NCBI RefSeq assembly: GCF_048403405.1
Contig: NZ_CP183129.1
Length of the DNA stretch: 64,000 nt
Origin: Escherichia coli
GTDB lineage: Bacteria > Pseudomonadota > Gammaproteobacteria > Enterobacterales > Enterobacteriaceae
Reading direction: 5' to 3' (one strand)
In this document: positions 33,601 through 36,600 of the stretch, in pieces
Numbering within the stretch: position 1 is the first letter of the stretch
Layout: each line of letters opens with the position of its first letter
Position numbers: made by a program

Positions 33601-36600
33601 CGCCGGAATCGGCAGAATAAACAAAATACTGACCGTCATACTGCTCAGCCCTAATACCGCGCCCATCAGCACGCCGGAGCAGGCTTCAAAGGCGGCAATC
33701 CCGGCCAGACCGCCAATCAGCATCAGCAAATAACAGTTAAAACCGCTGTTACCGAAAAGCGTTTTATAACTGGTAAGCAGGCGTGTGCGCGGTGTGTCGA
33801 CCGGACGTGTTTCCGGCATCCAGCGGGCCATACTGAAGGTCACACCGGCGCAAAGTACCAACAAAAAGAGATAACAGGCGCGCCAGTTCCACATCGTATC
33901 CAGCAGACCACCGATTAGCGGTGCGAGCAACGGACTGACAAGAATCCCCATGTTTAACAAGCTGTTAGCGTGGCGCAACTGTGTCCGTTCATATAAATCA
34001 CGCGGCAAAGTACGCGCCATTACACCGCCAACGCCGGTGCCCATGCCCTGCATCGCGCTGGCGGCAATCAATACCGTCAAACTGGAGGTCGTGACCGCGA
34101 CCAGCGTTGCCAGCATAAAAATGGACATTCCGACGAGGATCACCGGTCGGCGACCGACACGGTCGGAAATTGGGCCATAAAACAGCTGTGAGACACCGTA
34201 AGTCAGCAGATAAGCGCCCATTACGCTCTGCACCGCCCCTTCACGGACGTTGAGATCGCGCGCCATATCGGCAATAGCTGGAATATAAATGGTTTGCGCC
34301 ATCTGACCGACGGCCACGAGTAATACCAACATCAATAACAAATTGACGTTTCTATGCCTTTTCATTATCACGGATGCTTTTATAAAAATAATTAGAATAA
34401 GTCACTACGCATTCCCATAAATGCGGGAGAGGAATCTATCACATTGATAAATGTTAGCCAGATATACGCCAGGAATGGGGAATTGTTTAGCGGCAGAATA
34501 TGTAAACAAAAGCGGCAATAAATGTTGCCGGGAGGGATGGTAGGGCGGATAAGATGCATCAGCATCGCATCCGACACCAACCCGCACGCTAAATATGAAA
34601 GGGGAGCGGTTACCCGCTCCCCTTTGGTGCGACTTGAATCTGAATTACTTCAGGTATTTCAGAACAGCATCAAGCAGTTGCAGTGCTGCAACAATGAGTT
34701 TGAGGATAAGAATGGCGATATCCACCAGGCTCATACGCGTCTCCTGTGGTTCAGGAGCACTGCCAGCTGACGTACCTTTCCGCTGCCTGTTGCCAGCTGT
34801 TGTGCACGCGGTATCTCAAGGAGAAACGTTGTGCTCGTTGACATAACACAGTGTGCTCACGCGGGGTTAAGGCGCTGACGGCACCACCCGTTTCAGCCAG
34901 GACTTAGTGCGCCGGGTAACGATGCGGCCCCCGCATAACACATTGCGTACAGTGATATTATAGAAGTTTACTGTATAAATAAACAGTAATGTTTGGACAA
35001 AACGCAAACTGTGATCGATACTCAACTATGCACTAATTACGTCAAAATTCGTGCCGAAATTGCGCGTTCTGCGCGGAACACGTATACTTTCTGTGTTGAC
35101 ATAATACAGTGTGCTTTGCGGTTACCAGCCGCGGGCGGCTGACGAAACCTCGCTCCGGCGGGGTTTTTTGTTGTGCACAGAAAACCCCCAGCTAGGCTGG
35201 GGGTTCCGGAAAGCTTTCAGCTTTAAGCCAGTTATTAAAACCCCTTTTGATTTGTTAAAACACCTTGCGGTCTGGCAACTGCAAGTGTCAAACAAGAAAT
35301 CGAAAGGGGGTCCCAATGGGGAACGAAAAGAGCTTAGCGCACACCCGATGGAACTGTAAATATCACATAGTTTTTGCGCCAAAATACCGAAGACAGGTGT
35401 TCTACAGAGAGAAGCGTAGAGCAATAGGCAGTATTTTGAGAAAGCTGTGTGAGTGGAAAAGTGTACGGATTCTGGAAGCTGAATGCTGTGCAGATCATAT
35501 CCATATGCTTGTGGAGATCCCGCCCAAAATGAGCGTATCCGGCTTTATGGGATATCTGAAAGGGAAAAGCAGTCTGATGCTTTACGAGCAGTTTGGTGAT
35601 TTGAAATTCAAATACAGGAACAGGGAGTTCTGGTGCAGAGGGTACTACGTCGATACGGTGGGTAAGAACACGGCGAAGATACAGGATTACATAAAGCACC
35701 AGCTTGAAGAGGATAAAATGGGAGAGCAGTTATCGATTCCCTATCCGGGCAGCCCGTTTACGGGCCGTAAGTAACGAAGTTGGATGCAAATGTCAGATCG
35801 TGTGCGCCTGTTAGGGCGCGGCTGGTAAGAGAGCCTTATAGGCGCATTTGAAAAACCTCCGGCTATGCCGGAGGATATTTATTACCTGCAGTACAGTACA
35901 AAACGTGATCAACCCCTCAATTTTCCCTTGCTGAAAAATTTTCCATTGTCTCCCCTGTAAAGCTGTGCTTGTATAAATATTGTTAAACACAAAACCAACA
36001 AGGTCCCCAATGACTACTTCCATGCTCAACGCAAAACTACTACCAACTGCGCCATCCGCCGCAGTGGTCGTCGTGCGTGTGGTGGTGGTCGTCGGCAATG
36101 CGCCGTAGGGACTGGAACAACACACGATTCCAAAACCCCGCCGGCGCAAACCGGGCGGGGTTTTTCGTTTAAGCACCTCCCGGAAAGTCGGCCCAGAAGA
36201 AAAGGACTGGAGCATGGCAAGTTCGGGCACAACATCGACGCGTAAGCGCTTTACCGGCGCAGAATTTATCGTTCATTTCCTGGAACAGCAGGGCATTAAG
36301 ATTGTGACGGGCATTCCGGGCGGTTCTATCCTGCCTGTTTACGATGCCTTAAGCCAAAGCACGCAAATCCGCCATATTCTGGCTCGCCATGAACAGGGCG
36401 CGGGGTTTATCGCTCAGGGAATGGCGCGCACCGACGGTAAACCGGCGGTCTGTATGGCCTGTAGCGGACCGGGGGCGACTAACCTGGTGACCGCCATTGC
36501 CGATGCGCGGCTGGACTCCATCCCGCTGATTTGCATCACTGGTCAGGTTCCCGCCTCAATGATCGGCACTGACGCCTTCCAGGAAGTCGACACCTACGGC

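What the first reader, a model, noticed from the sequence alone, without database searches (positions are those of the whole stretch)
35172..35885. IS200 copy inserted between the istR terminator and the ivbL-ilvBN promoter
A complete IS200 (intact 152-aa TnpA, terminal hairpins) sits within a few bases of the IstR terminator and roughly 120 bp upstream of the ilvB leader. IS200 is small and usually transcriptionally quiet, but its left-end hairpin is a terminator and its position could alter read-through or promoter context for ivbL-ilvBN or the 3' end of IstR. It also marks this strain as carrying IS200, which is patchily distributed in E. coli.
Basis: partly seen in the sequence, partly recalled or inferred. 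Interest (0 to 1): 0.45.

Follow-up and report, generated by a model that had tools for sequence, protein, structure and literature searches.

The report
IS200 copy behind the IstR terminator
This is an ordinary, intact copy of the small mobile element IS200, and it sits right behind the IstR terminator because IS200-type elements habitually insert just after a terminator hairpin and its run of T's; it breaks no gene and no recognisable ilvB promoter element.

Summary
A 711-bp IS200C copy occupies window 35173-35883 on the + strand. It has an intact 152-aa Y1/HUH TnpA, the left-end terminator hairpin, the stem-loop that hides the tnpA ribosome-binding site, and a right-end hairpin.

Deleting exactly these 711 bp gives a sequence found 100% identical in many E. 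coli genomes. So the insertion is precise, with no target duplication. It lies 3 nt after the annotated IstR 3' end, 126 nt before the ivbL ATG and about 100 nt upstream of the inferred ilvB start site. IstR, a CRP-like site, the -10 element and the attenuator are all intact.

The position is not chance. In 88 distinct left flanks of IS200-group elements (E. coli, Yersinia pestis IS1541, Vibrio, Desulfovibrionaceae, Bacillota and others), the element follows a GC-rich hairpin plus TTTNTT. Five separate E. coli sites show the same pattern.

Only 9 of 5,426 complete E. coli genomes carry IS200 at this site. Two of them hold a 4.2%-divergent IS200 variant at the same nucleotide and in the same orientation, which suggests a recurrent target.

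Effects on IstR or ilvBN expression are untested and probably small. This is a known element in a typical site, so interest is low.

The parts
34645..34734 (-). tisB, the type I toxin (29 aa) whose mRNA IstR-1 represses. It is context only and is not touched by the IS.
   Evidence: The ORF is listed. RefSeq annotates tisB at the equivalent position in a near-identical strain and in K-12.
35040..35169 (+). istR (IstR-2). IstR-1 is roughly the last 73 nt, about 35097-35169.
   Evidence: Rfam RF01400 matches over its full length (1-130 of 130) at 147.5 bits, E = 1.4e-31. The K-12 annotation of IstR-1 and IstR-2 was mapped across by alignment.
35144..35172 (+). IstR intrinsic terminator: the stem-loop 35144-35167 and the tail TTTTTTGTT (35164-35172). 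This is the IS200 target, and the element is joined directly 3' of ...TGTT.
   Evidence: The terminator scan found it and so did the folds. The junction was defined against the K-12 empty site ...GGGGTTTTTTGTT^ATCTGC and against 100%-identical empty sites.
35173..35883 (+). IS200C, a complete 711-bp element. Its sequence runs GTGCACAGAAAAC...GGAGGATATTTATT.
   Evidence: Shown by alignment to the empty site and to copies at other loci. It is 99.9% identical to copies that RefSeq annotates as IS200C. All 5 E. coli sites examined give the same 711-bp length.
35183..35205 (+). Left-end hairpin (AACCCCCAGC-TAG-GCTGGGGGTT). This is the published bidirectional terminator, nt 12-34 of IS200, and probably the TnpA-binding hairpin.
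   Evidence: The DNA fold gives -11.7 kcal/mol with a z-score of -3.6. It falls in positions 1-23 of the Rfam STnc490 match. The literature coordinates come from PMC4513863.
35241..35309 (+). tnpA 5'UTR stem-loop that hides the Shine-Dalgarno sequence (published nt 69-138). The antisense RNA art200 is expected on the opposite strand, over about 35235-35324. This copy has a private A-to-G change at 35302, which turns a U-A pair into a U.G pair.
   Evidence: The fold gives -20.5 kcal/mol with a z-score of -4.7. Rfam matches it, and PMC4513863 gives the coordinates. The SNP comes from comparison with L003 and L004.
35316..35774 (+). tnpA, encoding the 152-aa Y1/HUH single-strand DNA transposase (coordinates include the stop codon).
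   Evidence: Supported by Pfam PF01797 at 3.8e-38, NCBIfam NF033573 at 1.9e-43 and PDB homologues 2ec2 and 2a6m. RefSeq annotates a tnpA of the same length and position (protein WP_000526135.1) in strain TUM14771, whose DNA over 35100-35960 differs from the window only at 35302, outside the CDS.
35856..35883 (+). Right end: the hairpin CCTCCGGC-TAT-GCCGGAGG (35856-35874) and the tip ATATTTATT (35875-35883). The last 6 nt, TTTATT, mimic the target TTTGTT.
   Evidence: The scan calls it terminator-like on both strands. The DNA fold gives -10.0 kcal/mol with a z-score of -3.1. The K-12 alignment overlaps the IS tip at 5 of 6 positions.
35904..35919 (+). Best CRP-like site upstream of the ilvB promoter (CGTGATCAACCCCTCA). 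It is intact and begins 20 nt to the right of the IS end.
   Evidence: It is the best match to the consensus in the region, with 3 mismatches. Reading it as the ilvB CRP site rests on my recollection of Friden et al. 1982/1984.
35972..35977 (+). Likely -10 hexamer (TATAAA) of the ivbL-ilvBN promoter. The inferred start site is about 35983-35986, which places the IS end at about -100.
   Evidence: Inferred from the sequence. The distance to the end of the attenuator T-run (36170) fits the roughly 188-nt leader that I recall from the literature.
36010..36108 (+). ivbL leader peptide gene. The attenuator terminator follows at about 36134-36170, then ilvB (36214-37902) and ilvN (37906-38196).
   Evidence: The ORFs are listed. 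The annotation was transferred from K-12 and TUM14771, and landmarks were located.

Best explanation
The segment is one intact copy of IS200C, a member of the IS200 group of the IS200/IS605 family, which moves by single-strand 'peel-and-paste' transposition.

Its TnpA joined the left end directly 3' of the T-rich tail (TTTTTTGTT) of the IstR intrinsic terminator. That tail lies on the + strand, which at this locus is the lagging-strand template. No target duplication was made.

The site was chosen because IS200-group elements insert after a GC-rich hairpin followed by TTTNTT. This motif resembles the element's own right end (hairpin plus ATATTTATT). By analogy with IS608, it is probably read by the A-rich 'guide' bases that sit just 5' of the end hairpins.

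The insertion leaves IstR, its terminator, the CRP-like site, the core ilvB promoter and the attenuator intact, and both IS ends carry terminator-like hairpins. It is therefore most likely a near-neutral passenger and a lineage marker, not a regulatory change.

Shown here: the element's identity, its exact junctions, the absence of a duplication, the target motif across many copies, and the orientation relative to dnaA. Inferred: guide-target pairing, recognition of the hairpin as such, and neutrality.
For: Identity. The anatomy matches the published IS200 coordinates to within 1 nt.

Precise insertion: the K-12 empty site and 100%-identical reconstructed empty sites.

Target rule:
- In 88 distinct left flanks the last six flank bases are T at 65, 85, 76, 58, 87 and 88 of 88 positions. 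The last position was fixed by my alignment rule.
- The 45-nt flank folds at a mean of -19.7 kcal/mol, against -8.2 for random windows, and 68% of flanks fall below the control's 5th percentile.
- A strict hairpin-plus-T-run detector scores 45 of 89 flanks, against 56 of 5,000 controls.
- Arbitrary TTTNTTG motifs reach the same folding threshold in only 7% of cases.

Five separate E. coli sites (istR, cspB, hokD, yfeY, araE) all read hairpin, T-rich tail ending in TT, then GTGCACAG. At the four sites with an annotated upstream protein gene (cspB, hokD, yfeY, araE), tnpA runs the same way as that gene.

Y. pestis holds tandem copies in which one element sits directly after the right end of another. 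This shows that the right end itself acts as a target.

Two IS200 variants, 30 differences apart with every difference inside the IS, occupy the identical nucleotide and orientation. Empty-site strains lie between the two lineages in flank distance.

Orientation: dnaA, dnaN, recF and gyrB are on the window's + strand upstream of the IS, so the + strand is the lagging-strand template. This matches the family's known bias (PMC5027513).

A 2025-26 preprint reports terminator-like sequences enriched just upstream of IS elements, most strongly for IS200/IS605.
Against: No expression data exist, so neutrality is an inference.

The hairpin association could come partly from survival of harmless insertions rather than from recognition of the hairpin.

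The 88 flanks come from about 25 genomes and about 10 element subfamilies, so they are not fully independent. My boundary rule forced a T at flank position -1.

Guide-target pairing is transferred from IS608 and has not been shown for IS200.

A shared TT leaves the cleavage points ambiguous by 2 nt.

The CRP site and the start site are placed from sequence and from memory, not from a database I could query.
Confidence: 0.85

Rival explanations
1. The insertion has regulatory effects. By replacing all DNA upstream of about -100 of the ilvB promoter and all DNA from 4 nt past the IstR 3' end, it changes ilvBN expression, IstR termination or stability, or read-through between the two units. Alternatively, read-through from the SOS-inducible IstR-2 promoter drives tnpA.
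For: The IS lies 3 nt from the IstR 3' end and 20 nt from the CRP-like site. Sequence downstream of a U-tract can modulate termination, which is general knowledge. The left-end terminator is reported to stop only about 85% of incoming transcripts (PMC5435999). This copy also has a private A-to-G change that weakens one pair of the stem hiding the ribosome-binding site.
Against: All recognised elements are intact: full-length IstR, its T-tract, the CRP-like site, the -10 element and the attenuator. The promoter scan finds no outward-facing promoter-like site at the right end. Both IS ends are terminator-like. The site fits the element's generic target rule, so no selection needs to be invoked. 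The insertion is rare, in 9 of 5,426 genomes. In roughly 1,070 genomes (about 20%) the reconstructed empty-site query matches only from about -51 onward; in the one examined, GN05056, the tisB-istR cassette is absent and the DNA just upstream of the insertion point is unrelated. Variation there is evidently tolerated.
Confidence: 0.1
2. The link between IS200 and terminators is a survivorship effect, not target recognition. TnpA needs only a short T-rich sequence, and copies that land just after terminators persist because they are harmless and stay transcriptionally silent.
For: IS608 needs only its tetranucleotide in single-stranded DNA (PMC5027513). The preprint explains the enrichment by regulation and persistence. 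IS200 was first found as an insertion inside hisD, so sites within genes are possible.
Against: Only 7% of TTTNTTG motifs in the same loci have a comparably stable hairpin upstream, against 68% of real flanks. The spacing from the last paired base to the junction is tight, 0-9 nt. The element's own right end, a hairpin followed by 9 nt ending in TTATT, is itself used as a target in tandem copies. These points fit a structural component but do not prove one.
Confidence: 0.25
3. The divergent IS200 variant at this site in strains CNR85I8 and 1296KP is not a second insertion. It is the same ancestral insertion, overwritten by gene conversion from another IS200 copy, and related strains lost the element by precise excision.
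For: All 30 differences lie inside the IS, and the 73 bp and 77 bp of compared flank are identical. Precise excision is part of the family's mechanism. The nearest flank differences are 104 bp and 290 bp away.
Against: The variant is 100% identical to copies at other loci. Over 3,150 bp of flank, the two occupied lineages differ more from each other (35 differences) than the window differs from empty-site strains (17-22). A single origin would therefore need several excisions as well as a full-length conversion.
Confidence: 0.25

Closest known systems
IS200 of Salmonella / IS200C of E. coli (IS200 group of the IS200/IS605 family)
   Same: It has a single tnpA gene for a 152-aa Y1/HUH transposase and is about 707-711 bp long. 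The left-end terminator hairpin is at nt 11-33 (published 12-34), the stem-loop hiding the ribosome-binding site is at nt 69-137 (published 69-138), and there is a right-end hairpin. There is no target duplication. It is 99.9% identical to RefSeq-annotated IS200C copies.
   Different: Nothing essential differs. This copy has one private A-to-G change at IS nt 130 (window 35302) in the 5'UTR stem.
IS1541 of Yersinia pestis
   Same: The left-end hairpin core is identical, and the same kind of site is used: directly after a hairpin plus T-run. This was seen in the unique Y. pestis flanks in loci L109-L124. As I recall it, Odaert et al. 1998 (J Bacteriol 180:178) reported terminator-like stem-loops at 8 of 14 IS1541 insertion sites and proposed them as hot spots. 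I could not open that paper.
   Different: It is a different subfamily (its left end starts GTGCCCAG rather than GTGCACAG) and has a much higher copy number. Tandem copies joined right end to left end occur in Y. pestis.
IS608 / ISDra2 (the mechanistic models for the family)
   Same: TnpA is homologous (2a6m at E = 3.9e-19). Insertion is 3' of a short specific sequence without duplication, the top strand lies on the lagging-strand template, and the hairpins are subterminal.
   Different: IS608 carries tnpB and targets TTAC, and ISDra2 targets TTGAT. IS200 has no tnpB, uses a T-run (TTTNTT), and is additionally associated with an upstream hairpin. Guide-target pairing has not been demonstrated for IS200.
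REP-associated tyrosine transposases (RAYTs)
   Same: They have the same Y1/HUH fold and also act on hairpin-forming extragenic sequences. NCBIfam REP_Tyr_transpos gives a weak match of 32 bits, below its cut-off of 80.
   Different: RAYTs are single-copy domesticated genes flanked by REP sequences. This element is a multi-copy mobile IS, and it scores far better as transpos_IS200 (147.7 bits).

Membership tests
IS200/IS605 family, IS200 group | Encodes a Y1 (HUH plus a single catalytic Tyr) TnpA transposase | tested here: met
   Pfam PF01797 at 3.8e-38 against a cut-off of 23 bits. NCBIfam NF033573, an equivalog model, gives 147.7 bits against a cut-off of 55. The alignment to the solved homologue 2ec2 lines up DHIH with DHIH and the C-terminal Tyr (DYIKHQ against KYIEEQ).
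IS200/IS605 family, IS200 group | tnpA alone, with no tnpB or iscB, and a total length of about 0.7 kb | tested here: met
   The element is 711 bp between its junctions, and the only long sense ORF is tnpA.
IS200/IS605 family, IS200 group | Subterminal hairpins at both ends instead of terminal inverted repeats | tested here: met
   The left-end hairpin 35183-35205 has a z-score of -3.6 and the right-end hairpin 35856-35874 a z-score of -3.1. The two ends are not inverted repeats of each other.
IS200/IS605 family, IS200 group | Insertion without target-site duplication | tested here: met
   Deleting 35173-35883 gives a sequence that is 100% identical over 300 bp to natural empty sites. The flanks GTT and ACC show no repeat.
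IS200/IS605 family, IS200 group | The left end always inserts 3' of a short element-specific sequence, and the tip of the right end resembles that sequence | tested here: met
   The flank logo is TTTNTT in 88 distinct flanks. The right-end tip TTTATT compares with the target TTTGTT. The family rule is stated in PMC5027513.
IS200/IS605 family, IS200 group | Active (top) strand on the lagging-strand template | tested here: met
   dnaA, dnaN, recF and gyrB are on the + strand upstream within the window, and a near-identical occupied locus lies about 30.5 kb from dnaA in strain 4621. Given the established position of E. coli oriC beyond dnaA, the + strand is the lagging-strand template. This is a single copy, so it is consistent with the bias but is not a statistical test.
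IS200/IS605 family, IS200 group | IS200-specific regulatory anatomy: a left-end terminator, a 5'UTR stem-loop hiding the ribosome-binding site, and the antisense art200 region | tested here: met
   Rfam RF01405 matches over its full length at 143.4 bits against a gathering score of 56. The coordinates agree with PMC4513863. Expression of art200 itself was not tested.
IS200/IS605 family, IS200 group | Ability to transpose | not testable with these tools
   The ORF and both ends are intact, and many near-identical copies exist: 10-20 places per genome in the seven IS200C-type genomes occupied at this site (H1-H7). Activity needs an experiment.
tisB/istR-1 type I toxin-antitoxin locus (the context) | A full-length IstR RNA gene with an intact terminator, placed divergently from tisB | tested here: met
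   Rfam RF01400 matches positions 1-130 of 130 at 147.5 bits. The 29-aa tisB ORF is at 34645-34734 on the - strand. The IS begins 3 nt after the mapped IstR 3' end.

The most novel reading that the evidence does not exclude
IS200-group transposases may recognise intrinsic terminators as structured targets. On this reading, a hairpin plus TTTNTT on the lagging-strand template mimics the element's own right end. That would make the 3' edges of terminators, including those of small RNAs such as IstR, recurrent hot spots for insertion. The IstR terminator would then have been hit independently, at the same nucleotide, by two IS200 variants. This would turn a 1998 anecdote about IS1541 and a recent statistical enrichment into a defined targeting rule that can be tested.
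Probability: 0.5. Interest if true: 0.4.

Novelty: already known. Interest (0 to 1): 0.2.

Why it matters
For this window it matters little. The element is a known IS in a harmless intergenic position. It is useful mainly as a lineage marker, since only 9 of 5,426 complete E. coli genomes share the site.

The wider point is modest but useful. The position 'within a few bases of a terminator' is what IS200 normally does. Similar findings elsewhere (IS200 behind cspB, hokD, yfeY and araE) should therefore not be read as regulatory rewiring unless expression data say so.

If the hairpin itself proves to be part of the target, that would explain why IS200 copies are so often silent and harmless, and why they can accumulate despite almost never transposing in the laboratory.

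Tried and rejected
- **Chance or mis-annotation.** I asked whether the segment might be only IS200-like or truncated. Full-length protein, RNA-family and DNA matches rule this out.
- **The left-flank match at other loci.** BLAST matches at other loci began 27-30 nt to the left of the IS. This first suggested that the element might include part of the 'IstR terminator'. Alignment showed instead that those other sites are different terminators with similar sequence, those of cspB and hokD.
- **An outward promoter at the right end.** The promoter scan found none.
- **A strict terminator detector.** Requiring perfect stems missed many obvious hairpins, scoring 45 of 89. I replaced it with a folding-energy comparison.
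- **Literature on the IS200 target.** Odaert 1998 and Beuzon & Casadesus 1997 are not held in the library. One search and one on ilvB, CRP and the promoter returned nothing useful. The IS1541 hot-spot statement and the ilvB CRP and leader coordinates therefore rest on my memory.
- **The genome-contig scan.** I took the E. coli sites one at a time from RefSeq instead.
- **The two ORFs between ilvN and uhpA.** Pfam and PADLOC gave no hit, and NCBIfam gave no hit for the 500-aa ORF and only a far sub-threshold one for the 435-aa ORF (blaLAP, 15.6 bits against a cut-off of 600). I did not pursue them further.
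Full report
**What is in the sequence**

Window 35173-35883 (+ strand, 711 bp) is a complete IS200. The ORF 35316-35774 encodes a 152-aa protein. It matches Pfam Y1_Tnp (3.8e-38) and the NCBIfam equivalog transpos_IS200 (1.9e-43). It also matches solved Y1/HUH transposases, including IS608 TnpA; in the one alignment printed (2ec2) the HUH motif (DHIH) and the C-terminal tyrosine line up.

Rfam's IS200 left-end family STnc490 matches 35183-35306 over its full length (143 bits). As single-stranded DNA, the left-end hairpin (35183-35205), the 5'UTR stem-loop (35241-35309) and the right-end hairpin (35856-35874) fold far better than shuffled sequence, with z-scores of -3.6, -4.7 and -3.1. 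These positions agree to within 1 nt with the published IS200 map: terminator at nt 12-34 and the stem-loop hiding the ribosome-binding site at nt 69-138 (PMC4513863).

RefSeq annotates the same sequence at the same locus in several genomes as 'IS200/IS605-like element IS200C family transposase'. The window holds only this one copy.

**Exact target site**

The K-12 empty site reads ...CGGCGGGGTTTTTTGTT^ATCTGCAATTCAGTAC. The window reads ...GGGGTTTTTTGTT|GTGCACAG...GGAGGATATTTATT|ACCTGCAGTACAGTAC.

The three flank differences from K-12 (35885, 35891, 35893) are lineage variants and were not caused by the IS. When I deleted 35173-35883 in silico, the 300-bp product was 100% identical to many natural E. 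coli genomes. The insertion is therefore precise, with no target duplication and no loss of target bases.

A TT shared by the left flank and the tip of the IS leaves a 2-nt ambiguity.

IstR (Rfam RF01400, positions 1-130 of 130, 147.5 bits) ends at 35169, which corresponds to the annotated K-12 3' end. The IS begins 3 nt later.

On the other side, ivbL starts at 36010, which is 126 nt after the IS. The likely -10 element is TATAAA at 35972-35977, and the best CRP-like site is at 35904-35919, beginning 20 nt after the IS end. With the start site inferred at about 35983-35986, the IS ends at about -100. This start site comes from the -10 element and from the roughly 188-nt leader that I recall from Friden et al. 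1982; I did not verify it here.

**Why it sits at the terminator**

BLAST hits to IS200 copies at other loci extended about 30 nt into the 'IstR terminator'. Alignment showed that those sites are different terminators with similar sequence. One example is the cspB terminator...CCCGCTCAGGCGGGTTTTTTATT|GTGCACAG.

I then collected left ends by scanning species-representative genomes for the left-end hairpin core CCCCAGCTAGGCTGGGG. After keeping left-end contexts and removing duplicates, 88 aligned flanks remained. They come from about 25 genomes, including Y. pestis (IS1541), Vibrio, Brenneria, Pluralibacter, Edwardsiella, Oxalobacter, Sutterella, Mailhella/Desulfovibrio, and Peptococcaceae, Bacillota and Elusimicrobia genomes assembled from metagenomes.

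- **Flank sequence.** Flank positions -6 to -1 are T in 65, 85, 76, 58, 87 and 88 of 88 flanks, and GC-rich sequence precedes them. Position -1 was fixed by my alignment rule; the others were not.
- **Folding.** The last 45 nt fold at a mean of -19.7 kcal/mol, against -8.2 for random windows from the same loci, and 68% lie below the control's 5th percentile.
- **Strict detector.** A detector requiring a perfect stem plus a T-run scored 45 of 89 flanks, against 56 of 5,000 controls.
- **T-runs alone.** Arbitrary TTTNTTG motifs in the same loci reach the folding threshold in only 7% of cases, and that 7% includes the real flanks.

Five separate E. coli sites (istR, cspB, hokD, yfeY, araE) all show a hairpin, a T-rich tail ending in TT, and then the IS. 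At the four sites with an annotated upstream protein gene (cspB, hokD, yfeY, araE), tnpA runs the same way as that gene.

In Y. pestis some copies lie directly after the right end of another copy, reading ...GGAGGATATTTATT|GTGCCCAG. The right end, a hairpin followed by 9 nt ending in TTATT, is thus itself a target.

The IstR terminator (stem, then TTTTTTGTT) is therefore a textbook IS200 target. This agrees with a recent preprint that found terminator-like sequences enriched immediately upstream of IS elements, most strongly for IS200/IS605. It also agrees with my recollection of Odaert et al. 1998 on IS1541, which I could not open.

**Mechanism**

Family members excise one strand as a circle and insert it 3' of a short specific sequence in single-stranded DNA, preferentially on the lagging-strand template (PMC5027513).

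The window carries dnaA, dnaN, recF and gyrB on its + strand at 4.6-10.6 kb. A near-identical occupied locus lies about 30.5 kb from dnaA in strain 4621, whose record starts at dnaA. On the established E. coli map, oriC lies beyond dnaA. The fork therefore moves in the + direction, and the + strand, which carries both the IstR T-tract and the IS200 top strand, is the lagging-strand template. This fits the family's bias.

Both IS ends have an A-run immediately 5' of the hairpin (CAGAAAAC|CCCC and TTGAAAAA|CCTCC). Both cleavage sites are T-rich (TGTT| and TATT|). By analogy with the guide-target pairing of IS608, the A-run probably reads the T-run. This is an inference. Whether the hairpin is recognised directly (mimicry of the right end) or merely marks sites where insertions survive is not settled by my data.

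**Recurrence**

Only 9 of 5,426 complete E. coli genomes have IS200 at this site. Seven carry the IS200C type found in the window. The closest, TUM14771, differs from the window at 3 mismatches and 1 gap in 8.9 kb.

Two genomes (CNR85I8 and 1296KP) match at 96.5%. In CNR85I8, the one I aligned, a 711-bp IS200 has 30 differences, all of them inside the element, at the identical nucleotide and in the same orientation. That variant is 100% identical to copies at other loci, for example yfeY|yfeX and araE|ygeA.

Over 3,150 bp of flank, the window differs from two empty-site strains by 17-22 positions, but from CNR85I8 by 35. CNR85I8 differs from the empty-site strains by 35-44. Two independent insertions are the most economical reading. 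One insertion followed by gene conversion and several precise excisions is not excluded.

**Consequences**

Nothing functional is interrupted. IstR and its U-tract are intact, as are the CRP-like site, the -10 element, ivbL and the attenuator.

Transcripts that escape the IstR terminator meet the IS200 left-end terminator about 12 nt later; it is reported to stop about 85% of incoming transcription (PMC5435999). The right-end hairpin is terminator-like on both strands, and no outward promoter-like site was found there.

Natural variation just upstream of the insertion point is large. In about 1,070 of 5,418 genomes the reconstructed empty-site query matches only from about -51 onward. In the one I examined, GN05056, the 641-bp tisAB-istR cassette is missing. 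Homology to the window stops at 34531 and resumes at about 35884, which is exactly the IS200 insertion point.

I therefore rate a regulatory effect as unlikely (about 0.1), but it is untested.

**Verdict**

The observation and the identification are correct. The proximity to the terminator is explained by the element's normal target choice. The element and this particular insertion are already represented and annotated in public genomes. Interest is low, at 0.2. The only part with some wider value is the sharply defined 'hairpin plus TTTNTT' target rule and the apparent double hit at the IstR terminator.

Noticed in passing
window 35302: This IS200 copy has a private G where all compared copies have A (IS nt 130). 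The change turns a U-A pair into a U.G pair in the lower stem that hides the tnpA Shine-Dalgarno sequence, so it may slightly loosen translational repression.
   Followed up: partly
L004 1574-2284 (E. coli CNR85I8; also 1296KP, hit H9): A 4.2%-divergent IS200 variant (30 differences, all inside the IS) sits at the identical nucleotide and in the same orientation as the window's copy. Empty-site strains fall between the two lineages in flank distance.
   Followed up: partly
window 34532-35172, compared with L133 2344-2445 (E. coli GN05056): In about 1,070 of 5,418 E. coli genomes the empty-site query matches only from about -51 of the ilvB promoter onward. In the one examined, the 641-bp tisAB-istR cassette is replaced by about 102 bp of unrelated sequence. 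The right edge of this presence/absence difference coincides with the IS200 insertion point, at the end of the IstR terminator.
   Followed up: partly
window 38197-41575: About 3.4 kb lies between ilvN and uhpA that K-12 lacks. It holds two + strand ORFs (38449-39756, 435 aa; 39972-41474, 500 aa) with no Pfam or PADLOC match and no significant NCBIfam match. The first ORF at least is annotated at the same place, as a hypothetical protein, in the IS-free relatives CFSAN018748 and A10.
   Followed up: partly
L110, L111, L113 (Yersinia pestis NCTC5923): Tandem IS1541 copies are joined right end to left end (...GGAGGATATTTATT|GTGCCCAG). One element has inserted directly after the right end of another, or a circle-junction-like arrangement has been fixed in the chromosome.
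   Followed up: no
L005-L124 (genome-contig scan): The 17-nt left-end hairpin core CCCCAGCTAGGCTGGGG is conserved exactly in IS200-group elements of Proteobacteria, Desulfovibrionaceae, Bacillota, Elusimicrobia and Saccharibacteria genomes. The same hairpin also forms the right end (…GGGGGATGCTTATT|) of a different element in a Ruminococcus genome assembled from a metagenome (L090-L098).
   Followed up: no
L128 about 2190-2230 (E. coli CFSAN061763, yfeY|yfeX): An IS200 copy ends 13 nt before the yfeX start codon (…TATT|TTCAGGAGGAACAATG). It therefore separates yfeX from all of its native upstream DNA. Of the sites I looked at, this one has more potential for a polar or regulatory effect than the istR site does.
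   Followed up: no
L084 about 690-740 (Dickeya undicola): A solitary left-end hairpin is flanked by inverted copies of the left-end tip (GTCTATAGAAAAC-hairpin-GTTTTCTATAGAC) and has no tnpA after it. It could be a remnant or a MITE-like derivative of IS200.
   Followed up: no
window 35183-35306: The Rfam STnc490 model matches the + (tnpA-sense) strand and includes the left-end terminator hairpin. The published STnc490/art200 RNA, however, is antisense to the tnpA 5'UTR. The Rfam family appears to model the sense strand.
   Followed up: no
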